From: an uncultured Alphaproteobacteria bacterium
Lineage (GTDB): Bacteria > Pseudomonadota > Alphaproteobacteria > HIMB59 > GCA-002718135
DNA: 64,000 bases
Direction of reading: 5' to 3'
Assembly (NCBI GenBank): GCA_902635455.1
Contig: CACPNW010000001.1
Span: forward strand, 5,214 to 69,213
A program made the translations under genes and the position numbers. Positions 35,440 through 63,445 of this stretch are shown here, piece by piece; within the stretch, counting starts at the first letter, position 1, and every line of letters begins with the position of its first letter. Under the pieces are notes generated by a model. That model did no database searches and was not told where the DNA came from. It saw only the letters and a list, made by a program, of their open reading frames with translations.

Positions 35440-35538
35440 ATGATTATTGTTTGTTTTTTAAGATTTATAATATTATATTATTTTTACTTATTGCACGCAA
35501 AGGCAATAAGTAAATTGATTAAAGGAAACTTTAATTAG
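35440..35538 (+). CDS. candidate 32-codon hydrophobic mini-ORF (leader peptide or small membrane peptide)
   Basis: ATG 35440 to TAG 35536-35538 encodes MIIVCFLRFIILYYFYLLHAKAISKLIKGNFN. It overlaps hairpins 1 and 2 of the structured region and has no clear SD. Confidence 0.25.
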   Translation: MIIVCFLRFIILYYFYLLHAKAISKLIKGNFN

Positions 35539-35600
35539 TTTATATCGGGAGGAAATGCACGATATAGAAGAAAGACCTAGCTTGCTGGGTCTTTTTTTTT
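35483..35600 (+). promoter_or_regulatory. structured RNA element: three stem-loops plus an intrinsic terminator, class unknown
   Basis: Hairpin 1 is 35483-35494/35503-35514 (12 perfect bp, loop ACGCAAAG). Hairpin 2 is 35518-35535 (7 bp, GAAA loop). Hairpin 3 is 35541-35566 (7 bp, loop GGAGGAAATGCA). The terminator then ends 16 nt before the deaminase ATG. Confidence 0.5.
35571..35600 (+). terminator. rho-independent terminator
   Basis: Stem AAAGACCTAG/CTGGGTCTTT with one G-T wobble and loop CTTG, followed by a T run ending at 35600. Confidence 0.7.
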
Positions 35601-36198: not shown

Positions 36199-36232
36199 TC
36201 TACAAATTTGTAATATAAAGATATTTATTATT

Positions 36233-36369
36233 ACGGGAGATACTGCTTTAATGCAGAGCCGAAGGAGCAACGACCCGGAATCTCTCAGGCAAAAGGACCG
36301 TTAAATAGACTCTGGAAAAGAGTTAGGGCTCTACCGAAGGAGTAAAAACTCTCAGGTAAATAGACAGAG
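36233..36369 (+). promoter_or_regulatory. tandem glycine riboswitch
   Basis: Two aptamers each carry the conserved cores: GGGAGA...GCCGAAGGAGCAA...CTCTCAGGCAAAAGGACCG and CTCTGGAAAAGAG...CTACCGAAGGAGTAA...CTCTCAGGTAAATAGACAGAG. They sit directly upstream of gcvT. Confidence 0.9.
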
Positions 36370-55675: not shown

Positions 55676-56086
55676 ATGGCAGATTTTGGAAATACTTTTT
55701 ATTTAATTATTTTTATAATTAATTTACTTGGTTTAATTTATTACGCTTACTTAACTTATTTAAATCCAAAACAATTAATTAATGATTATGAAGCAGGAGA
55801 TGATTCTATTGTATTTATAAGAGTAATAGGTTCATTTGTTTTATCTTATGTTGTAATAGGAATTATTTTACTATTTACTTCAATCAATGGAGCTTGGATC
55901 TATTTTGTATCTGGACTTATGATATCCGCTTTTCAATTAATATATGATCTTGGTTCTAGAATGAAAATAATTGATAGTAATTATAAAGTTATTAATAAAA
56001 ATTCTGATACAATTATAGCTATTTTATTTATTGTTATAAATGTAATTTTAATTTCTGGACTTTCAGATAAGATTTATTATCATTAA
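55676..56086 (+). CDS. 4-TM membrane protein, unknown family (paralog A)
   Basis: 136 aa. It shares the QLIYDL and GLS-x-KIY motifs and its topology with the next gene. Confidence 0.5.
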   Translation: MADFGNTFYLIIFIINLLGLIYYAYLTYLNPKQLINDYEAGDDSIVFIRVIGSFVLSYVVIGIILLFTSINGAWIYFVSGLMISAFQLIYDLGSRMKIIDSNYKVINKNSDTIIAILFIVINVILISGLSDKIYYH

Positions 56087-56109
56087 TAAAATTAATTTTA
56101 AAAAAAAAG

Positions 56110-56134
56110 AGCTGGGTGTTAACTCAGCTTTTTT
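56110..56134. terminator. rho-independent terminator (A-run/T-run flanked)
   Basis: Stem AGCTGGG/CTCAGCT (one G-T wobble) with loop TGTTAA, preceded by A8 and followed by a T run. Confidence 0.65.
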
Positions 56135-56176
56135 AATATTTAATTCATTTTTTTGTTTAATTTAACAAAATTATAA

Positions 56177-56629
56177 TTGGAATTAATTAAGGTAGGTATA
56201 TATAGTATTTATATGATAGAAAATTTTAACAATATTTACTTATTAATTTTACATATTTTAATTCAAATTTTACTTGGTTTTTATCTTATTAGAATAATTT
56301 TTTCTCCAGAAGGAATGGTTAAAGAATTTAATGTAGATAAAAGTGGCATACTTCCAATGAGATATGTTGGAACATTTGCATTTGGTTTAGTTTTTATGGG
56401 AATATATATATTATTTAGACCAAATGGCCCTGAAGGAACTTGGGTATATTATAATTTATTTTTTATCATAACTGGATCTCAATTAATTTATGATTTGTTA
56501 TTCTATTTTAAATTAATAGATAAAGATATAGGTGCTAAAAATAGTCTAGTTGACATTTTTGTTTCAATGTTTGCAACTATTGTATCAATAATATTGATTT
56601 TTGGTCTTTCAAATAAAATTTATATTTAA
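56177..56629 (+). CDS. 4-TM membrane protein, unknown family (paralog B)
   Basis: The ORF track starts at 56177; ATG 56213 (MIENFNN...) is more likely. It carries the same QLIYDL and GLSNKIY motifs as paralog A. Confidence 0.5.
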   Translation: MELIKVGIYSIYMIENFNNIYLLILHILIQILLGFYLIRIIFSPEGMVKEFNVDKSGILPMRYVGTFAFGLVFMGIYILFRPNGPEGTWVYYNLFFIITGSQLIYDLLFYFKLIDKDIGAKNSLVDIFVSMFATIVSIILIFGLSNKIYI

Positions 56630-56640
56630 TTAAAAATTAA

Positions 56641-57063
56641 ATGATAATCATAATTGTTAAATTCATACATTATCTAGCAATTGTTTTTTCTGGCGGTGTT
56701 TTAGTTGGTAGTGGGGTAATTCAATCTGTTTATACTAGAGCAAATCAAATTCCAGATACTCATGTTTCTAGAATATTAAAATTGTTAGGATACTTTGGGT
56801 TAATATCTTTGATTATTTTATGGATAACTGGAATATTATTATCAAATATTATTTATGGAGGTTTTTCTATAAACAGTGCATTTACCATTAAAATGATTGC
56901 AGCAGGTTTACTACTAGGTTTATCTATTTTTGTAAATTTATATGTTTTCAATGTTTCTAACAAAAAAATTCCACCAAATAAAACAATTATGAAAATTGCA
57001 ACAATGAGTGGAAGGGGTTTATTAGTTATAGTTTTAATTGCAGCAGCAACTGCATTTTATTAA
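56641..57063 (+). CDS. 4-TM membrane protein, unknown function
   Basis: 140 aa with four hydrophobic segments and no motif I recognised. Confidence 0.45.
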   Translation: MIIIIVKFIHYLAIVFSGGVLVGSGVIQSVYTRANQIPDTHVSRILKLLGYFGLISLIILWITGILLSNIIYGGFSINSAFTIKMIAAGLLLGLSIFVNLYVFNVSNKKIPPNKTIMKIATMSGRGLLVIVLIAAATAFY

Positions 57064-57073
57064 ATTTTAAAAG

Positions 57074-58141
57074 CTATATTTTTTTTGCTATACTTATTTC
57101 TTTAATATCAGTAATTTTTGTATATCTATCAATCATTTGAGTAGTTTTATGGCCACTCATTTTCATTATTTCATGCGTAGGTACACCATTCATCCTTGCT
57201 TGAGTTATTGATCCAATTCTTAAGCTATGACCTGAAATTTTATTACAATCATTTAAGCCTGCTGCTTCAGCTCTTTTCTTTAAAATTAAAACAAAACTTG
57301 TATCAGTTAAACTTATTTTCTCATTGTTTTCGTTAAGTTCATATTTTCTAATAGAGTTAGCTTTATCAATTCGATAGAAAAGGGGGCCAGTGTTAATCAT
57401 TGATATTTCTAACCAATCATTCAATGCTCTAACTGGACAGTATAATGCCTCTGTATCATCTTTTTTTTGCAAAAATATAACCCTACCTTCACCTTTTTGA
57501 TCTGTTTTAGAAAATGGAATCATAATTTGAATACCTTCGCTATCAAAAGTTAAATGATCATATCTCATGCCAAGTAATTCAGACCTTCTGCAAAAACTAA
57601 AATAACCTACTAATATTAGTGCTTTATCTCTAATATTTTTATAATCATCTTTATTTTCAGGGATTGAGTCTATAATCTGCTCAATATCTTTTCTTAAAAG
57701 CTCTTTTGCTTGTCCAATTTTATTGTTCTTTTCATCTCTAACAATAGCACTAATGGTTTCTGATATGCTTGGATTTTTTCTATCAAACTGAAAACCTCCT
57801 AATCGATATTTGTATGTTATTGATGCTAGTATTCTTTGTATTGTTGAAGCTTTATATGCTGAGGAAGAGTAGGGGTTATTATTTATTTTCTCTCTTCCTG
57901 GAATATTGCTTGAACCCTTAAGTATTTTAGCCTCAGGATCTTCATGTAACCAGTGCATATAGTTTGCTGTCAACGAATAGGCGCTATCTAAGTCATCTAC
58001 CTCTAAAGGTTCACAGTTGTACTTGTTTTTACAATAATCAATAAATTTAAGCCAATCCCCATGATATTTATCTTTTGTATTTTTAGCCTTAGATTTTTCT
58101 CTAAGTTTGCTAACTTTGTCATTTAATGATATTTTAACCAT
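57074..58141 (-). CDS. tyrosine-type site-specific recombinase, Cre-like
   Basis: Catalytic-type residues lie in CRRSEL (Arg), GHSLRIG (HxxR), SGHKT (His) and IDRYT (Tyr). The N-terminal core-binding domain and overall spacing resemble Cre-type recombinases. Confidence 0.88.
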   Translation of the reverse strand: MVKISLNDKVSKLREKSKAKNTKDKYHGDWLKFIDYCKNKYNCEPLEVDDLDSAYSLTANYMHWLHEDPEAKILKGSSNIPGREKINNNPYSSSAYKASTIQRILASITYKYRLGGFQFDRKNPSISETISAIVRDEKNNKIGQAKELLRKDIEQIIDSIPENKDDYKNIRDKALILVGYFSFCRRSELLGMRYDHLTFDSEGIQIMIPFSKTDQKGEGRVIFLQKKDDTEALYCPVRALNDWLEISMINTGPLFYRIDKANSIRKYELNENNEKISLTDTSFVLILKKRAEAAGLNDCNKISGHSLRIGSITQARMNGVPTHEIMKMSGHKTTQMIDRYTKITDIKEISIAKKI

Positions 58142-58295: not shown

Positions 58296-59030
58296 GTGTG
58301 TAAAATGATAGAATTACCTAAGATTTCTGCGAATTCCCATATCTTTGTATTAACTGGTGCAGGTATAAGTAAAGAGTCTGGTATTGAAACATTTAGAGAT
58401 AATGATAGTCTTTGGAGTAATCATAGAATTCAAGATGTTGCTAGTACTGAGGGATTTGATAGTAACCCTACTCTTGTCTATGATTTTTATAATAAACGTA
58501 GAAAAGAACTAAATTCAGGAATTGAGCCAAATAGGGCTCATATTTTACTTGCTGAATTACAAAAATTATTAAATATCAATATAATAACACAAAATATTGA
58601 TAATTTACATGAGAAAGCAGGAAGTTCATCCATTATTCATATGCATGGAGAGTTAAATAAAGCTAGATGCATTATGAATGATAGTCATGTCTTTAATTGG
58701 TTTGAGGATCTAAATGAGACCCATAGATGCCCTGAATGTAACTATCAAATGCGTCCTCACATTGTGTGGTTTGGTGAGATACCTCTTCAAATGGAAGATA
58801 TTCATGATTTAGCAGAGCAATCTGCCCTCTTCGTCTCAATTGGTACATCCGGTGAAGTTTATCCTGCTGCAGCAGGCTACGTTACTATGTTCAAAGATAT
58901 GCGTAAGCCAACTGTTGAACTAAATTTAGAGCCATCTTGTAATCAAGATCAATTTGATTTTGCAATTCATAAACCTGCAACAGTTGCTATTGAAGAATTT
59001 AAAGATTTATTAATTAAAAATATTAAATAA
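58296..59030 (+). CDS. cobB: NAD-dependent protein deacylase, canonical sirtuin (CobB-like)
   Basis: GAGISKESGIETFR, TQNIDNLH, catalytic His in IHMHGEL, zinc-ribbon remnant RC...CPEC and VWFGE. The likely start is ATG 58305. Confidence 0.85.
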   Translation: MCKMIELPKISANSHIFVLTGAGISKESGIETFRDNDSLWSNHRIQDVASTEGFDSNPTLVYDFYNKRRKELNSGIEPNRAHILLAELQKLLNINIITQNIDNLHEKAGSSSIIHMHGELNKARCIMNDSHVFNWFEDLNETHRCPECNYQMRPHIVWFGEIPLQMEDIHDLAEQSALFVSIGTSGEVYPAAAGYVTMFKDMRKPTVELNLEPSCNQDQFDFAIHKPATVAIEEFKDLLIKNIK

Positions 59031-59095: not shown

Positions 59096-59500
59096 TTAAT
59101 CTTCTGGTCTGATATCTTTTATTATTAACTCAATATCTAAATCAAAATATCTAATAACTTCTTTGATTTTTCTTATGTGTTTTTCAGAATTACCTTTTCT
59201 GATTAATAATAAAATACCTGGTTTTTTATCTGTTTGAGAGGCATAATATAATGATTGTCCTATTGCCTCATAAACTTTCATACCGTCTGCCCAGTCAACT
59301 TCAAATACATGAGTTTCCGTAAGACAATCTACTCTTGATTTATCTTCTAAAGCATAATCAGCATGACCTGACATTTCTTCACAAAATTTTTCACTATAAT
59401 AAGTTTCTTTCTGAATTGCATAAGATGAAAATGATAGAACGCAAAAAAATAATAATAGAAATATTTTTTTTATGAATTTTATCAAAATTACTTTATTCAA
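59096..59500 (-). CDS. secreted hypothetical protein, possible PD-(D/E)xK-like fold
   Basis: The tracked ORF (to 59599) overlaps the upstream gene. TTG 59500, 1 nt after that gene's TAA, gives a 134-aa protein with signal peptide NKVILIKFIKKIFLLLFFCVLSFSSYA. The mature part contains RVDCLT...FEVDWADGMKVYEAIGQSLYY. Confidence 0.5.
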   Translation of the reverse strand: MNKVILIKFIKKIFLLLFFCVLSFSSYAIQKETYYSEKFCEEMSGHADYALEDKSRVDCLTETHVFEVDWADGMKVYEAIGQSLYYASQTDKKPGILLLIRKGNSEKHIRKIKEVIRYFDLDIELIIKDIRPED

Positions 59501-59501
59501 A

Positions 59502-60125
59502 TTAGTTTCTAAAATTGCAATAAGATTTAGCTTTATCAAAGTCAGTTTTTTTGACTGCCCTGGTATTAATTGGTGCCGGATAAGGTTTAGATTTACCATT
59601 TTTATTCATTAATCTTACCCAAACACTATCTTTATTTATAAAGTAACAAAATTGCTGGTATGGATAATCTATTTTATCTGGTTTAAATTTATAACCGGTA
59701 TAAATATTTGCAATAAAACCATTGGATAAAGTCAATTTTCTATCTTGAAAGACAATAAATTCTTCATTTACTTGATTTGGATTCATTTTATTTTGTTCAT
59801 TAAACTTTTTTTGATCTTTAATTATTTTCTCTAACTTATTAATATCCTCTCTTAAATTATAATTTGTAGTATTATATGTTTGGTCTCCATCAACCTTTAT
59901 AATCTGACTTGGTTTTTCAGTATAGAACCAATAGGCTAAACTTAGTAAAAAAACTAAGAGCCCGAGACTAATTAAAAATAAGGTTATATATATTAAATTT
60001 CTCTTTAAGATTTGAGAAGATCTATAACGACGAATTTGTTTTACACGTCTTTGTTCTTCAATAACAAAATTATTTACAGCACTAAAGTCGCTATCTACAC
60101 TTTCAGGTATGTTTGTTTCATTCAT
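59502..60125 (-). CDS. bitopic membrane protein, unknown function
   Basis: 207 aa with a basic N-terminus (RRVKQIRRYRSSQILKR), a single TM (LIYITLFLISLGLLVFLLSLAYWFY) and a C-terminal domain of about 135 aa. ATGA overlap with the upstream gene. Confidence 0.55.
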   Translation of the reverse strand: MNETNIPESVDSDFSAVNNFVIEEQRRVKQIRRYRSSQILKRNLIYITLFLISLGLLVFLLSLAYWFYTEKPSQIIKVDGDQTYNTTNYNLREDINKLEKIIKDQKKFNEQNKMNPNQVNEEFIVFQDRKLTLSNGFIANIYTGYKFKPDKIDYPYQQFCYFINKDSVWVRLMNKNGKSKPYPAPINTRAVKKTDFDKAKSYCNFRN

Positions 60126-62137
60126 TTACTTTTATCTTTTTTATCTTTTTTGTCGTTATTGCTAATATTTAATAAAGCAGGATCATTTGTATAAACAGGT
60201 ATATGAACAGGTTTTAAAATTGTTTTTTCTTTTATTACTTCGGTTGGAACAATTTTATCGACTGGAACTTCTTTGATAACTTCTTTTACAATAGTATCTA
60301 TTTGTTTTACTGTTTTAGTTTCAACTATTTTTTTGATTCTTGGACGTCTAACAAATCTAAGTACTCTAATTAAGTTTGTGCCTAACATAGAATGTCTTTT
60401 TTCTGGATGAACTGTTCTAAGAACTTCAGAGCCAAAAGCTACAGCTGTTCCTGTCATAGCAACAACTAAAGCCATTGCTCCAAACCAAATAGTTTCTGTG
60501 AAATCCAAACAGTCAGATGATATATCAGCTGCAGATTGAGCAGGAATCAGATTATTATCTTCATCTAGCATTCCACACGATGAATACATCCAAAGAGGGA
60601 TTTTTAGGGCAAAATTATGTATTATAGAACTAGTAGATAGAATATTATATTCATCTTTTAAATCTATGTTGTCAGTTTTTATCTTATTTTTTTGATTTTG
60701 AAGTTCTTCAACTTTCACATTCTGTGTTTCTAAACTTTTGATTTTAGAGTCTCTCTCTTCTTCAATTATATTTTTATTTTTATTAAACTCTTCATTAATA
60801 GTATCGTTTTCCTCATCTATTTTTGAAATTAATTGATCAAATTGAGCACCTGTATTGCTTCTTTCAGAGTTTATAATTTCGATATCATTATCAAATTGCA
60901 CATTTATTTTTTTTATTTCTGTCTCTAAATTAGCTAATTCTTCTCTTACTGACTCCGTGTCCTGTGATATTCTTTTTTCAAGTTCAAGATTTAGATTATC
61001 AATTTCTAAATTTATTGACTTTTCTAAATCAATAAACTCTTTATCAATTTGTTTGAGCTCATTGTTGAATTGACTCTCCGCAATTGAGAGATCCTTTGTT
61101 AAATTGCTTGCAATGATAGAAATATCATTCCTTAATTCAGTAATTTGAATAGAAATTTTATCTTGTCTTTCATTAGACTCAGTTTCTCTTTTTTTAATTC
61201 TACCGCGATAACCCCATTTTTTTTCATCTAGTTCTTTATTAATATAGTTTTGCAGATCTCTTTTTTCATTTTCTAATTGTTTTGTTACATTATTTAAGTT
61301 TTCTTTTTTTGTTGCTTCCTCGTTAGATGCATTAAGTCTTTTATTTGCTATTTTTTGCTCATAATTAAATCTTACCTCATCTTTAGCTTTAGATTTGTTA
61401 GAATTAAGAGAGTTTGTTTGTCCAATTTTATTATTAAGTTTATCTCTCAATAATTGCTGAGCTTCAGAATTAGTTTTTTCTCTTAATTCATCTCTTTTTT
61501 CAATATAAGGTTTTAAAATATCATCTCTTCTATTATTTGCTTCTTTTATTTTATTAACATTTTCATCAAGCCTAGTTGACCTTTTGTCTTCATAGGCATC
61601 TATTCTTTCATTTACTTCATTTAAAGCTAGATCTCTTTGATTCTGAAAAAATAAAAGCTTACTCTGAAAATTTTCATTAATTGAATCTTCATTTAAAAGA
61701 CTAATTTCTTCAATTTTAGTATCAATATTATTTATTTTTGCATAATTTTTTTCTAGTTGATTAAGAAGAACATTTTGTTTTTGAGTCATAAAAGTAGAAT
61801 TTATCTCAAAACCAACTAGCATGGACTCAAATGTAACAAACATTACTATTATTAAAAAAGCTGAACCAACAACTTTCCACCAAATTTTAACAGAACGATA
61901 TATTGATATTACCAAAGGAATTCTACTAAGCTCAATTACACCTATTAAGAAGAATAATAAACCAGAGATGTAACCACCCTTTTTAATGGTCTCTTCCGTT
62001 GATAAACCTGTATCACCAAAAACTAAAAAATAACCAATTGAAAAACTAACCAATGCAGCAATAATTTCAATAGCCCAAGCAATTTTTAGTATCTTGTTTG
62101 CAGTTGAGTGATTAAGGTCTATTGTTGGCCTGCTCAT
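60122..62137 (-). CDS. large polytopic membrane protein with ~400-aa coiled-coil region, unknown function
   Basis: 671 aa. Three N-terminal TM segments are followed by about 400 aa of heptad-like K/E/N/D/L-rich sequence. One or two C-terminal TM segments flank a Cys pair, and the protein ends in a basic, K-rich tail. Confidence 0.6.
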   Translation of the reverse strand: MSRPTIDLNHSTANKILKIAWAIEIIAALVSFSIGYFLVFGDTGLSTEETIKKGGYISGLLFFLIGVIELSRIPLVISIYRSVKIWWKVVGSAFLIIVMFVTFESMLVGFEINSTFMTQKQNVLLNQLEKNYAKINNIDTKIEEISLLNEDSINENFQSKLLFFQNQRDLALNEVNERIDAYEDKRSTRLDENVNKIKEANNRRDDILKPYIEKRDELREKTNSEAQQLLRDKLNNKIGQTNSLNSNKSKAKDEVRFNYEQKIANKRLNASNEEATKKENLNNVTKQLENEKRDLQNYINKELDEKKWGYRGRIKKRETESNERQDKISIQITELRNDISIIASNLTKDLSIAESQFNNELKQIDKEFIDLEKSINLEIDNLNLELEKRISQDTESVREELANLETEIKKINVQFDNDIEIINSERSNTGAQFDQLISKIDEENDTINEEFNKNKNIIEEERDSKIKSLETQNVKVEELQNQKNKIKTDNIDLKDEYNILSTSSIIHNFALKIPLWMYSSCGMLDEDNNLIPAQSAADISSDCLDFTETIWFGAMALVVAMTGTAVAFGSEVLRTVHPEKRHSMLGTNLIRVLRFVRRPRIKKIVETKTVKQIDTIVKEVIKEVPVDKIVPTEVIKEKTILKPVHIPVYTNDPALLNISNNDKKDKKDKSK

Positions 62138-62183: not shown

Positions 62184-62402
62184 TTAATTACAAAATTCAT
62201 CCTTTTGTTGATAGACACATAAGAAAGTTTTTTGCTTTTCTTTTTCAAGCAGTATTAAGTTATTTATTATTCTTTCTTCCTTCATTTTCTCATTATATCC
62301 TTCAAGAAATCCCTGACTAAAACTCATAGCTTCAGTACTACATCCTGACAAATATAATGAAAATATTGAAATTATTAGAAAATATAGAATTTTTTTCTGC
62401 AT
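62184..62402 (-). CDS. small lipoprotein, unknown function
   Basis: 72 aa with a signal peptide carrying the lipobox LSGC. It is the first gene of the minus-strand cluster. Confidence 0.5.
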   Translation of the reverse strand: MQKKILYFLIISIFSLYLSGCSTEAMSFSQGFLEGYNEKMKEERIINNLILLEKEKQKTFLCVYQQKDEFCN

Positions 62403-62593: not shown

Positions 62594-63445
62594 GTGGGTA
62601 TATACTTGGCTAAAAAGATTATTCTTTTTATTTTATCTCTAATCTTCGTCATTCTTTTACTTAGTGTTGCTAATGCTTCTGCAAAAGAACAGTCTAGTGC
62701 GGAGAAATTACTGGATTCAGTAATTGGATATTATACCCACAACCAAAACCACACTATGCATGCCACAAACTTGGGCTGGGACTTTTATACCAATATCAAA
62801 TACCGCAACTTTGAAATTGCTTACAATTTTACAAGGATTGCCGCAGAAGATAAACATCCCTATGCCATCAATAATTTAGGTGTCATGCATGAAGAAGGCT
62901 ACGCGGTTGATAAGGATGTAAACAAAGCCTTTGACCTATACCTAGAGGCATCTCAACTTCCTGGTGTTCCGTGGTTTGCTTATAGTAATCTTGGCAGATA
63001 TTTTCTGTTGGGAATTGGCAATGTTGACGCCTCCTACGATATGGCTAAGGAACACTTCACTAAAGCAAAAGAGTTAGGTGGAGAAAGAGCTACGACTGCC
63101 AGGATATATTTGCAGTGGCTCGAGGAGAAAGAGAGGTTACCAAATGATTACATGGAACTTGCTCTCTGGATGGAAGAACAAGCAAGTAAATCTAATGATG
63201 TCTTTATTATTCTTGGATGGTTGCTTGATGATTATAATTACGAGAATGCATATGAATGGTTTTATCTTGCCTCTCTGTTTGGAACTACTTTTGACCAGCC
63301 TCGGGCTACTGAAATTACATCAATGTTGGAACAGGAATTTTTAGAACAGGAAACTTTTATGAAAGCAAGACACAAAGCTCTTCGCTGGTTGGCAAATAAC
63401 ATGAATGATGAAGATTTTAAACCATCGGCAGCTTGTCAATCTTAA
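62594..63445 (+). CDS. secreted Sel1-like (TPR-family) repeat protein
   Basis: GTG start and signal peptide ...SVANASA. It has a Sel1-type repeat (YAINNLGVMHEEGYAVDKDVNKAFDLYLEASQ) and further degenerate repeats. G+C is visibly higher than in the backbone. Confidence 0.75.
   Translation: MGIYLAKKIILFILSLIFVILLLSVANASAKEQSSAEKLLDSVIGYYTHNQNHTMHATNLGWDFYTNIKYRNFEIAYNFTRIAAEDKHPYAINNLGVMHEEGYAVDKDVNKAFDLYLEASQLPGVPWFAYSNLGRYFLLGIGNVDASYDMAKEHFTKAKELGGERATTARIYLQWLEEKERLPNDYMELALWMEEQASKSNDVFIILGWLLDDYNYENAYEWFYLASLFGTTFDQPRATEITSMLEQEFLEQETFMKARHKALRWLANNMNDEDFKPSAACQS

What the first reader, a model, noticed from the sequence alone, without database searches (positions are those of the whole stretch)
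60122..62137. 671-aa membrane protein with an exceptionally long coiled coil clamped between TM segments
Three hydrophobic helices occupy roughly residues 16-110. About 400 residues of uninterrupted heptad-like charged sequence follow. Next come a moderately hydrophobic stretch (IIHNFALKIPLWMY), a loop with two Cys (SSCGML...SSDCLDF), a clear TM (TIWFGAMALVVAMTGTAVAFG) and a basic tail (RFVRRPRIKK...KKDKKDKSK). Depending on whether there are 4 or 5 TM segments, the coil is periplasmic or cytoplasmic, and I cannot resolve this by eye. The layout (N-terminal TMs, coiled coil, C-terminal TM) recalls DUF4407-type proteins and, more loosely, long-tailed MotA-like proteins such as ZorA. However, no MotA/ExbB motif is visible. 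It is an unusually large investment for a streamlined genome.
Basis: partly seen in the sequence, partly recalled or inferred. Interest (0 to 1): 0.55.

Follow-up and report, generated by a model that had tools for sequence, protein, structure and literature searches.

The report
Unannotated envelope-spanning coiled-coil membrane protein family
The 671-aa ORF is a real gene for a four-pass inner-membrane protein that is predicted to push a ~29-nm coiled-coil hairpin into the periplasm; it is the large subunit of a widespread, unnamed two-gene membrane module carried on flexible genomic islands of SAR11-like marine bacteria, and its function is unknown.

Summary
The ORF at 60122-62137(-) is real. 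Full-length homologues at 44-77% identity keep the frame, and conservation is high in the membrane parts and lower in the coil. An exhaustive profile search finds 828 representative clusters (284 at E<=1e-30). None hits Pfam, NCBIfam, PADLOC, PHROGs or any PDB sequence except through coiled-coil noise, so it is not a DUF4407, MotA/ExbB/ZorA, SMC, MCP or Wzz member. Family-wide charge statistics and a confident AlphaFold model (pLDDT 86.7) give four TMs, N-in and C-in. The 390-residue coil is an antiparallel hairpin on the periplasmic side. Its aromatic-Gly-basic tip sits at the geometric midpoint in members of every coil length. The most conserved residues are membrane-embedded: E24, E69, K/R72, P74, E104, G563 and A567. 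A cytoplasmic tail motif, [HY]VPxYTxD, is also conserved. A translationally coupled bitopic partner with a periplasmic Cys-pair domain follows the gene in SAR11, Porticoccaceae and Rhizobiales. In this window a small lipoprotein and a secreted protein complete a four-gene operon beside an integrase; a homologue sits beside an integrase and tmRNA. The best reading, which is inferred, is an ion-coupled envelope-spanning sensor or transducer carried as island cargo. The structural claims are solid and the function is speculative.

The parts
60122..62137 (-). Subunit A: the 671-aa four-TM protein with an inter-TM coiled-coil hairpin (the finding)
   Evidence: ORF; homologues; AlphaFold model with pLDDT 86.7
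62018..62089 (-). TM1 (residues ~17-40) with the invariant motif A20-W21-x-x-E24
   Evidence: Hydropathy; A20 and E24 invariant in 145/145, W21 in 140/145
61895..61975 (-). TM2 (residues ~55-81), kinked, with E69 (145/145), K/R72 (145/145), I73 and P74 (143/145)
61808..61885 (-). TM3 (residues ~85-110) with T102-F103-E104 (E in 144/145), G109 and E111; the helix runs straight into coil arm A
61223..61807 (-). Hairpin arm A (residues 111-305), outgoing helix with breaks at 146-149 and 222-224
   Evidence: AlphaFold pLDDT ~90
61202..61222 (-). Hairpin tip K306-W-G-Y-R-G-R312 (aromatic + Gly + basic)
   Evidence: Turn at 306-309 in both models. G/P and aromatic densities both spike to 0.091 in the central bin of the coil across 145 members, against about 0.02-0.04 in most other bins; aromatic density is also 0.089 in the first bin, next to TM3
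60635..61201 (-). Hairpin arm B (residues 313-501), returning helix
60494..60634 (-). Membrane-proximal periplasmic element (residues 502-548): short amphipathic helix 505-512 (Y/H507 conserved) and an acidic loop with a beta-hairpin and the C521/C543 pair
   Evidence: Cys occur mostly as a pair: 17 members have 2, 6 have 1 and 122 have 0. The pair is invariant in the near subfamily
60428..60493 (-). TM4 (residues ~549-570) with W551-F552-G553, A556, G563 and A567 (small-residue packing face)
60122..60427 (-). Cytoplasmic basic tail (residues 571-671 plus stop), modelled as disordered, Lys-rich at its end
   Evidence: Net charge +9.0 after TM4 family-wide; low pLDDT
60173..60229 (-). Conserved tail motif E637...V-H-I-P647-V-Y-T650-N-D652-P-A-L-L (family consensus [HY]VPxYTxD)
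   Evidence: P647 in 144/145, E637 in 134, T650 in 114, D652 in 123
59502..60125 (-). Subunit B: 207-aa bitopic partner. Its start overlaps A's stop by 4 nt. It has a cytoplasmic DSDFSAVNNF motif, one TM, a linker and a C-terminal domain with an invariant Cys pair (C160, C203)
   Evidence: ORF. Partner present downstream of A in L001, L002-L008, L029, L036-L041 and most Pelagibacteraceae loci. Alignment A6
62184..62402 (-). 72-aa lipoprotein (lipobox LSGC, then STEA; C-terminal Cys pair) directly upstream of A
   Evidence: ORF. Conserved in L001 (LNAC/STEA) and, as a 72-aa ORF, on the P0003 contig
59096..59500 (-). Gene 4: small secreted protein (signal peptide ...SFSSYA). The likely TTG start lies 1 nt after B's stop
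   Evidence: Homologue in L001 (132 aa) and a 125-aa ORF on the P0003 contig. No Pfam or PDB match
57074..58141 (-). Tyrosine recombinase (phage-integrase family); island context, not part of the module
   Evidence: PF00589 E=1.1e-14; phrog_1 integrase
62594..63445 (+). Secreted Sel1-repeat protein, divergent neighbour and possible accessory
   Evidence: PF08238 E=1.2e-10. A protein that looks Sel1-like by eye (c30) follows B in L018, L019 and L021; its similarity to the window Sel1 protein is not significant (E=0.76) and c30 was not scanned against Pfam

Best explanation
The ORF encodes the large subunit (A) of a previously unannotated two-gene inner-membrane module (A plus a bitopic partner B). 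The module is accessory cargo of flexible genomic islands in SAR11 and other, mostly marine, Proteobacteria.

Shown or strongly supported:
- A has four TM helices with both termini in the cytoplasm.
- TM3 continues directly into a ~195-residue helix that reverses at an aromatic-Gly-basic tip and returns as a second ~190-residue helix to TM4. This is an antiparallel hairpin of about 29 nm on the periplasmic side.
- The TM bundle carries the family's invariant residues: three glutamates, a Lys/Arg and a Pro.
- The cytoplasmic tail is polycationic and has a conserved [HY]VPxYTxD motif.
- B is N-in and C-out, with a disulfide-type periplasmic domain.

Inferred mechanism:
- A and B form an envelope-spanning complex whose hairpin tip reaches the peptidoglycan or outer membrane. 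In this subfamily it may contact the co-encoded lipoprotein.
- Because the hairpin is rigidly continuous with TM3 (E104), events at its distal end would be coupled to the intramembrane Glu/Lys network, and so to proton or cation binding or flow across the inner membrane.
- The coupling could run in either direction. The complex could be energised by ion flow, as in Tol/Ton/stator units, or it could be a gated ion leak, as in membrane abortive-infection effectors.
- The island location and the variable periplasmic accessories (TerB, SNase, lipoproteins, Sel1 or PAN domains) suggest a role in envelope surveillance, defence or competition rather than housekeeping.
For: Real gene and family:
-.
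- 828 representative clusters, 284 at E<=1e-30, with matches covering both ends of the protein.

Topology:
- Hydropathy.
- Family-wide charge bias: loop 2 +2.1 and post-TM4 +9.0, against loop 1 -1.6 and pre-TM4 -1.5.
- The pre-TM4 segment is polar family-wide.
- Cys residues in the pre-TM4 loop come mostly in pairs.

Hairpin:
- Two AlphaFold models with the turn at 306-309 and coil pLDDT ~90.
- Foldseek hits only to antiparallel hairpins such as Rad50, SMC and MCP.
- An alignment-independent midpoint spike of G/P and aromatics across coil lengths from 225 to 443 aa.

Invariant membrane residues: E24, E69 and A20 in 145/145, E104 in 144/145, K/R72 in 145/145, P74 in 143/145.

Partner:
- 4-nt overlap with A.
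- Present downstream of A in SAR11, Porticoccaceae, Rhizobiales and unbinned metagenome contigs.
- The partners form one family with an invariant Cys pair.

Island context:
- Integrase in the window; integrase plus tmRNA in L001.
- tRNAs within about 3 kb in L009, L016, L029, L032 and L038.
- Gene neighbourhoods vary among Pelagibacteraceae.
- SAR11 flexible islands are reported to lie at tRNA/tmRNA hotspots (PMC11796062).
- CBASS lies about 2 kb from the Mesorhizobium copy, separated by two hypothetical genes.
Against: - No experiment or homology links the family to any function.
- The topology rests on the positive-inside rule and Cys-pair logic, not on data.
- The monomer model says nothing about oligomeric state.
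- The conserved Glu/Lys residues could be structural (inter-helix salt bridges) rather than ion-conducting.
- B's TM has no conserved acidic residue, unlike MotB, ExbD, TolR and ZorB.
- PADLOC finds no defence-family match.
- No copy was found on phage records or viral contigs.
- Some clades lack a typical B: group B loci sit next to phoR-pstS, and group C has only an 80-aa TM partner.
- The defence association is anecdotal, resting on one CBASS neighbour plus island context.
- The width of the SAR11 periplasm was not retrieved.
Confidence: 0.4

Rival explanations
1. It is a divergent member of DUF4407 (PF14362), the family recalled by the first reader for its layout of N-terminal TMs, a coiled coil and a C-terminal TM.
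For: One of 72 diverse family members gives a DUF4407 hit at E=1.7e-4.
Against: The window protein shows no DUF4407 hit even at E<=1. None of six distant members does either, and 71 of 72 show none at E<=0.01. The single hit lies in the same E-value range as obvious coil noise (DUF3584, KIF21A, UPF0242). PGAP labels the two plasmid homologues 'hypothetical protein', not 'DUF4407 domain-containing'. DUF4407 itself has no known function (three incidental mentions), so membership would explain little.
Confidence: 0.1
2. It is a MotA/ExbB/TolQ/ZorA-type stator A subunit with a long tail, and the downstream bitopic protein is the MotB/ExbD/ZorB-type B subunit (a 5:2 ion-driven motor).
For: The gene order is A then B with translational coupling. 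B is N-in, single-TM, with a periplasmic domain. A carries invariant intramembrane charged residues. A long helical extension is present. ZorA models give weak hits.
Against: No PF01618 match in any of the 72 members scanned. The ZorA hits lie only in the coil (query 165-487 against ZorA3 model positions 479-803, and profile 138-422 against residues 251-588 of the solved ZorA chain) at E=0.04 to 5e-4, among apolipoproteins and myosins. B's TM lacks the defining conserved Asp. The coil lies between TM3 and TM4 and is predicted periplasmic, whereas the ZorA tail is described in the literature (recalled, not checked here) as C-terminal and cytoplasmic. The fold search finds no ExbB- or MotA-like match.
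Confidence: 0.15
3. The coil is cytoplasmic (five TMs, or inverted topology), and the protein is a membrane-anchored SMC/MCP-like scaffold or signalling hairpin that binds cytoplasmic partners such as TerB at its tip.
For: The closest folds are the cytoplasmic hairpins of Rad50, SMC and chemoreceptors. TerB, a cytoplasmic domain, is translationally coupled to A in about 15 Pelagibacteraceae loci.
Against: The charge bias is strong and consistent over 145 members. The candidate fifth TM is polar family-wide and is modelled as an 8-residue helix. The Cys pair contiguous with arm B is invariant in the near subfamily. TerB can equally well bind the conserved cytoplasmic tail. No P-loop, HAMP or MCP-signal domain is present.
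Confidence: 0.1
4. It is a passive structural or tethering element: a spanin-like or Lpp/TolA-like ruler connecting inner and outer membranes, or a lysis or membrane-fusion device together with the small lipoprotein.
For: The hairpin is predicted to be of periplasm-spanning length. In this subfamily a small lipoprotein is encoded directly upstream, and this pairing resembles an i-spanin/o-spanin pair.
Against: No holin, endolysin or phage context, and no phage or viral-contig hits. The protein has four TMs with an invariant charged network, which a passive tether does not need. The lipoprotein is not conserved across the family. The gene is accessory and therefore not an essential envelope ruler.
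Confidence: 0.1
5. The ORF is a chance open frame in AT-rich, low-complexity sequence.
For: GC is ~27% and the composition of the coil is N/E/K/I-rich.
Against: Full-length collinear homologues exist down to 20% identity in hundreds of clusters. Conservation is patterned. The operon partners are conserved. The structure model is confident.
Confidence: 0.01

Closest known systems
DUF4407 (Pfam PF14362), an uncharacterised bacterial membrane/coiled-coil family
   Same: General layout as recalled: TM helices at the N-terminus, a long helical region and a TM near the C-terminus. No known function.
   Different: No HMM match for the window protein or for 71 of 72 relatives. The signature motifs of this family (AWxxE, ELTKIP, TFE, WFG...G...A, [HY]VPxYTxD) define a separate, larger family that Pfam does not cover.
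MotAB / ExbBD / TolQR(-TolA) / ZorAB ion-driven 5:2 complexes
   Same: A polytopic A gene is followed by a translationally coupled bitopic N-in B gene with a periplasmic domain. Conserved charged residues lie inside the membrane. A long helical extension could transmit force or signal across a compartment. Like TolA and TonB, it is predicted to span the periplasm.
   Different: No PF01618 domain. The acidic residues are in A (E24, E69, E104), not in B's TM. The helical extension is an inter-TM hairpin predicted to lie in the periplasm, whereas the ZorA tail is described as C-terminal and cytoplasmic (recalled, not checked here). The stoichiometry is unknown.
Antiparallel coiled-coil hairpins of Rad50/SMC/MukB arms and chemoreceptor (MCP) signalling domains
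   Same: They are the only structural matches: a long intramolecular antiparallel two-helix coil with a conserved tip and local breaks ('elbows').
   Different: TM-scores are <=0.23. The protein has no ATPase head, no HAMP or MCP-signal domain and no hook or zinc motif. The hairpin is anchored at both ends in the membrane and is predicted to be periplasmic.
Periplasmic alpha-hairpin proteins: MFP adaptors (AcrA/MacA/HlyD) and PCP/Wzz co-polymerases
   Same: An inner-membrane anchor with a helical hairpin projecting toward the outer membrane. In MFPs a conserved hairpin tip contacts an outer-membrane partner (background knowledge).
   Different: No HlyD, Biotin_lipoyl or Wzz Pfam hits. This hairpin is two to five times longer. 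The four-TM bundle with a Glu triad is absent from those families, and no ABC/RND transporter or polysaccharide genes sit in the operon.
Ter stress-response components (TerB with the membrane protein TerC)
   Same: In about 15 Pelagibacteraceae loci a stand-alone TerB-domain gene overlaps the start of A. This echoes TerB working with a membrane protein rich in intramembrane acidic residues (background knowledge).
   Different: The window and its close relatives have no TerB anywhere in the 64 kb. A has no similarity to TerC. No terZ/A/D/E genes are present.

Membership tests
DUF4407 (PF14362) | Significant match to the PF14362 profile | tested here: not met
   hmmscan: no hit at E<=1 for the window protein or for six distant members. 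One of 72 members hits at E=1.7e-4, within coil-noise range.
DUF4407 (PF14362) | Profile-profile similarity of the TM domains (remote homology) | not testable with these tools
MotA/ExbB/TolQ/ZorA stator A subunits | MotA_ExbB domain (PF01618) in the TM region | tested here: not met
   No Pfam hit in 72 members. PADLOC ZorA and PDB ZorA matches are confined to the coil. Foldseek finds no ExbB/MotA match.
MotA/ExbB/TolQ/ZorA stator systems | B subunit with a single TM carrying a conserved, essential Asp | tested here: not met
   In partner alignment A6 the only invariant TM residue is G55, and there is no conserved D/E.
MotA/ExbB/TolQ/ZorA stator systems | Adjacent A-then-B genes, with B N-in and carrying a periplasmic domain | tested here: met
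   4-nt overlap. The N-terminal flank of B is strongly basic, and the C-terminal domain has an invariant Cys pair.
ZorA specifically | Long C-terminal cytoplasmic tail after the last TM | tested here: not met
   The coil lies between TM3 and TM4 and is predicted to be periplasmic. The post-TM4 tail is ~100 residues and disordered.
SMC/Rad50/MukB | ABC-type ATPase head split by the coiled coil | tested here: not met
   No SMC_N, AAA or P-loop Pfam hits. The ends of the hairpin are TM helices. Structural hits cover the coil only, with TM <=0.2.
Methyl-accepting chemotaxis proteins | HAMP plus MCPsignal domains, with a cytoplasmic hairpin | tested here: not met
   No Pfam hits. MCP matches in PDB searches are coil-only at E~2e-3. 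The hairpin is predicted to be periplasmic.
PCP/Wzz and MFP/HlyD periplasmic hairpin proteins | Wzz/GNVR or HlyD/lipoyl/beta-barrel domains | tested here: not met
   No such Pfam or NCBIfam hits.
Phage spanins (i-spanin/o-spanin) | Located in a phage lysis cassette; the i-spanin has a single N-terminal TM and is roughly 100-200 aa | tested here: not met
   No PHROG hit, and no phage or viral-contig homologues. The protein has four TMs and 671 aa. A small lipoprotein is adjacent, and this is the only shared trait.
Known anti-phage defence systems (PADLOC-DB v2) | Match to any defence-protein model | tested here: not met
   Only coil-level noise (ZorA3 E=0.041; LmuB and JetC on coil fragments) for A, and none for B, the lipoprotein or gene 4.

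The most novel reading that the evidence does not exclude
A+B is a new class of ion-coupled, envelope-spanning machine that is not homologous to MotAB, TolQR, ExbBD or ZorAB. Its ~16-36 nm periplasmic hairpin probes the outer membrane or peptidoglycan and gates, or is powered by, a Glu-lined ion path in the inner membrane. It would serve as an island-borne anti-phage or envelope-surveillance system in SAR11, the ocean's most abundant bacteria, in which recognisable defence systems are scarce.
Probability: 0.15. Interest if true: 0.8.

Novelty: new variant of a known kind. Interest (0 to 1): 0.55.

Why it matters
The gene belongs to a large protein family (at least 828 clusters at 50% identity) that has no name, no domain model and no solved or characterised relative. 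Even so, it has a clear and unusual design:
- a four-helix membrane bundle with three invariant buried glutamates;
- a periplasm-length hairpin with a conserved aromatic tip;
- an obligate bitopic partner.

It is concentrated in the flexible genomic islands of SAR11 and other oligotrophic marine bacteria, and the contents of those islands are thought to shape phage-host and niche interactions. Defining the family gives an immediate Pfam-type model. The point mutants (E24, E69, E104), the A-B co-expression and the topology reporters are all directly testable. If the ion-coupling idea holds, the module would add a new architecture to the short list of machines that connect inner-membrane ion gradients to the outer envelope. 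If it does not hold, the result is still a well-delimited family of unknown function rather than an artefact.

Tried and rejected
The full-length family alignment A3 was used instead, and it worked without being swamped by coil noise.
- Pfam scan of all 145 members: over the size limit, so it was repeated on 72 members.
- Foldseek against PDB with both models and against BFVD: only generic coiled coils, TM <=0.23.
- PDB sequence search: the coil-less profile found nothing, and the full profile found only coil noise.
- Phage GenBank tblastn and IMG/VR scan: no hits. The IMG/VR scan used a single peptide pattern, so its sensitivity is limited.
- Search for an A-B fusion in the long (800-875 aa) members: none. 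The extra length is hydrophobic segments after TM4 plus (KKPAA)n-type basic repeats.
- att-site search by direct repeats in 54-64 kb: only AT-rich chance matches.
- Promoter and terminator scan: counts at the chance level.
- Search of the window for TerB, SNase, c3 and c6 homologues: none.
- Identity of gene 4: the D..EVD..K..QxxxY pattern recalls PD-(D/E)xK nucleases, but there is no Pfam, PHROG or PDB support, so this stays a hunch.
- Literature: nothing on DUF4407 function, nothing linking TerB, coiled coil and anti-phage, and no SAR11 periplasm width in the paper read.
- One look-up of encoding contigs (P0064) failed on the server side.
- The B-partner profile search was dominated by PAN-domain columns from the two rhizobial rows and added little.


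Full report
**1. Observation**

The window is AT-rich (GC 20-32%). It carries an IMES-4 RNA and a glycine riboswitch, and the closest genomic relatives of the target are Pelagibacteraceae single-cell genomes, so the source is a SAR11-type marine alphaproteobacterium. The ORF at 60122-62137 on the minus strand is exactly as described: ATG start, 671 aa. Kyte-Doolittle analysis finds four strong hydrophobic segments (22-40, 61-79, 89-107, 550-568). The two Cys residues (521, 543), the acidic loop and the basic tail are all present. The coil is N/E/K/I-rich and helical, but it has register shifts and modelled breaks, so 'uninterrupted' overstates it.

**2. Real gene, large unnamed family**

A word-indexed search found only five close relatives at 44-77% identity, all collinear and full length apart from one fragment. 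Against the ~45%-identical homologues, identity is ~70% in TM1-3, ~33% in the coil arms, 51-57% in the C-terminal membrane region and 61-69% in the tail. This is the signature of a protein under selection, not of a chance frame.

A coil-deleted profile then reached a second tier of ~535-aa proteins that share short signature motifs. The one exhaustive profile search (alignment A3) found 828 representative clusters at E<=1e-3 and 284 at E<=1e-30. Their lengths run from about 520 to 860 aa, and the matches span both ends of the protein.

None of these proteins is covered by a curated model:
- The window protein has no Pfam, NCBIfam, PADLOC or PHROG hit.
- Six distant members give only coil noise.
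- Among 72 diverse members no Pfam family is hit by more than two, and all hits are coiled-coil families.
- Sources call the proteins 'hypothetical protein' or nothing.
- PDB sequence searches give nothing with the coil-less profile, and apolipoproteins, myosins and similar with the full profile.

**3. Architecture**

With a 145-sequence alignment, AlphaFold gives mean pLDDT 86.7, with the TM region above 90. The model contains:
- TM1 (6-40);
- TM2 (55-81), kinked at 71;
- TM3 (85-117), running without a break into the coil;
- helices to residue 305, a four-residue turn at 306-309 (K-W-G-Y), and helices back to 501;
- a short helix (505-512), a small beta-hairpin in the Cys loop (522-532), TM4 (541-574) and a juxtamembrane helix (585-597);
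- a disordered tail.

The shallow-alignment model had the same turn. Foldseek finds only intramolecular antiparallel coiled coils (Rad50, SMC/MukB arms, chemoreceptors, phage SMC-like proteins) at TM-scores <=0.23.

An alignment-independent test supports the hairpin. Across 145 members with coils of 210-491 residues, both G/P density and aromatic density rise to 0.091 in the central one-twenty-first of the coil, against roughly 0.02-0.04 in most other bins; aromatic density is also high (0.089) in the first bin, next to TM3. In addition, 116 of 145 members have a G/P within 12 residues of the midpoint, against 69-90 for control windows. The tip motif is an aromatic residue plus Gly/Ser plus a basic residue. 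Taking 0.1485 nm per residue, the window's arms give about 29 nm, the family median is about 23 nm and the range is 16-36 nm.

**4. Topology**

Over 145 members the mean net charges are N-terminus +1.4, loop 1 -1.6, loop 2 +2.1 (K+R 2.17, D+E 0.07), the pre-TM4 segment -1.5 and the 30-46 residues after TM4 +9.0. By the positive-inside rule (established knowledge) this gives N-in, four TMs, hairpin outside and tail inside.

Two further observations agree:
- The candidate fifth TM is polar family-wide (consensus NQIYRxA).
- Cys residues in the pre-TM4 loop come mostly in pairs: 17 members have two, 6 have one and 122 have none. The pair is invariant in the near subfamily, as expected for a periplasmic disulfide.

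This is inference, not measurement.

**5. What is conserved**

The invariant or near-invariant positions are almost all within the membrane:
- TM1: A20, W21, E24.
- TM2: F62, E69, K/R72, I73, P74, followed by Y80.
- TM3: L95, T102, F103, E104, G109 (E111 in 120/145).
- TM4: W551, F552, G553, A556, G563, A567.

By position, E24 and E69/K72 lie in the cytoplasmic half of the bilayer and E104 lies in the periplasmic half. The only conserved soluble motif is in the cytoplasmic tail: E637 ... [HY]-V-P647-x-[YP]-T-x-D652. The extreme C-terminus is Lys-rich, and long Rhodobiaceae members carry (KKPAA)n repeats there.

**6. Operon and partners**

In the window, a 72-aa lipoprotein (lipobox LSGC|STEA) precedes A. 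A 207-aa ORF overlaps A's stop by 4 nt. A small secreted protein starts, probably at a TTG, one base after that ORF's stop.

The same four genes occur next to the 46%-identical homologue (L001), and ORFs of matching sizes flank the 69%-identical one.

The 207-aa protein (B) has a basic cytoplasmic N-terminus with a DSDFSAVNNF motif, one TM, a linker and a C-terminal domain of ~85 residues. Proteins of the same design directly follow A in many settings:
- most Pelagibacteraceae loci, at 117-295 aa;
- a Porticoccaceae MAG;
- 758- and 802-aa members on metagenome contigs;
- two rhizobial megaplasmids, where PAN/Apple domains are appended.

Aligned together, they share an invariant Gly in the TM and an invariant Cys pair (...WCY...C...) in the C-terminal domain. 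B's TM has no conserved acidic residue.

Accessory genes vary:
- a stand-alone TerB-domain gene overlapping A's start, often with an ~88-aa lipoprotein, in about 15 Pelagibacteraceae loci;
- a secreted SNase-type nuclease in at least seven loci;
- Sel1-like secreted proteins.

The window has no TerB or SNase homologue. Two clades differ. In IMCC14465-like genomes an ~810-aa A sits beside phoR-pstS with no B. In Rhodobiaceae an 800-875-aa A is followed by an 80-aa TM protein.

**7. Genomic setting**

A tyrosine recombinase lies ~1 kb from the module in the window. In L001 a different integrase and a tmRNA gene directly follow it. tRNA genes lie within about 3 kb in L009, L016, L029, L032 and L038, and an excisionase-type HTH_17 gene occurs in the L038 island. 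Neighbourhoods differ widely among Pelagibacteraceae genomes, and nearly all metagenomic contigs carrying the gene are short. Both are typical of hypervariable regions. SAR11 flexible islands at tRNA/tmRNA hotspots, with few integrases, are described in PMC11796062.

No copy was found in phage genomes or IMG/VR. The Mesorhizobium copy is about 2 kb from a CBASS operon, separated by two hypothetical genes. I could not define att sites.

**8. Mechanism**

Shown: the family, the domain layout, the conserved residues, the partner and the island context.

Inferred: the periplasmic location, and the idea that A and B form a complex.

Proposed:
- The rigid TM3-hairpin continuity couples the distal tip, which would contact the cell wall, the outer membrane or the lipoprotein, to the Glu/Lys network in the bilayer.
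- The complex would therefore either draw on, or gate, ion flow across the inner membrane.
- In function this resembles Tol/Ton/stator systems, or membrane-depolarising defence effectors.
- The conserved tail motif and B's N-terminal motif would provide cytoplasmic docking sites, for TerB where it is present.

I give the structural description about 0.85 and the ion-coupled envelope sensor/transducer reading about 0.4. A defence role specifically gets about 0.15-0.2.

**9. Comparison with known systems**

Membership was tested and not met for DUF4407, MotA/ExbB/ZorA, SMC/Rad50, MCP, Wzz/HlyD, spanins and all PADLOC models (see the membership table). A remote relationship to DUF4407 cannot be excluded, because no profile-profile search against Pfam was possible. 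That family is itself uncharacterised.

**10. Verdict**

The finding is a real and correctly described gene. The suggested family assignments are not supported. What is there is the large subunit of a widespread, unnamed, island-borne two-gene envelope module. Interest is moderate (0.55): a clear, testable and unusual architecture in an ecologically dominant group, but with no functional evidence yet.

Noticed in passing
window 59096-59500 (-): Gene 4 of the operon is a small secreted protein whose sequence (…RVDCLTETHVFEVDWADGMKVYEAIGQSLYY…) shows a D…E-x-D…K…QxxxY pattern that recalls PD-(D/E)xK/RecB-type nuclease motifs. Other loci of the family carry a secreted SNase nuclease instead. No Pfam, PHROG or PDB support was found.
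   Followed up: partly
window 57074-58141 (-) and 58296-59030 (+): A tyrosine recombinase (PF00589) and a 244-aa Sir2-family protein (PF02146, E=6e-44) lie immediately beside the module. Whether the Sir2 is housekeeping CobB or island cargo was not resolved, and no att repeats were found.
   Followed up: partly
window 35487-35566 (+) and 36224-36310 (+): An IMES-4 RNA motif (100 bits) and a glycine riboswitch aptamer (66 bits) lie ~650 nt apart.
   Followed up: no
window 55676-57063 (+): Three consecutive small multi-TM ORFs (136, 150 and 140 aa). The first two share a '(S)QLIYDL' motif and look like tandem paralogues.
   Followed up: no
window 62594-63445 (+); L018, L019, L021 downstream of B: A secreted Sel1-repeat protein neighbours the module in the window, and a protein that looks Sel1-like by eye (cluster c30) follows B in three Pelagibacteraceae loci. 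This may be a recurrent accessory, but the pairwise similarity is not significant (E=0.76) and c30 was not scanned against Pfam.
   Followed up: partly
L013, L027, L028 (Rhodobiaceae members, C-terminal ~150 residues): Long family members end in (KKPAA/KKPVA)n repeats that resemble histone-H1-like polycationic tails. Together with the Lys-rich ends elsewhere, this suggests that the cytoplasmic C-terminus binds a polyanion such as DNA, RNA, polyphosphate or acidic lipids.
   Followed up: no
L012, L015, L018, L021, L023, L024, L026: A protein of the pentameric ligand-gated ion-channel type (cluster c4; Neur_chan_memb E=1e-5, with an FPFDxQ motif) lies within one or a few genes of the module in seven Pelagibacteraceae loci.
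   Followed up: no
P0011 and P0013 (metagenome proteins): Two odd architectures turned up: a DegT aminotransferase N-terminus joined to the family's C-terminal region, and the family's N-terminal TM block plus coil joined to a rhodanese domain. Both sit on contigs shorter than 1.5 kb and are probably assembly or gene-calling chimeras.
   Followed up: no
L036 (Mesorhizobium ciceri plasmid NZ_CP088148.1): The family gene is annotated there as two overlapping CDSs (173 + 394 aa), so it is probably frameshifted or mis-called. It lies about 2 kb from a CBASS operon (separated by two hypothetical genes) and near an ImmA/IrrE-HTH pair.
   Followed up: no
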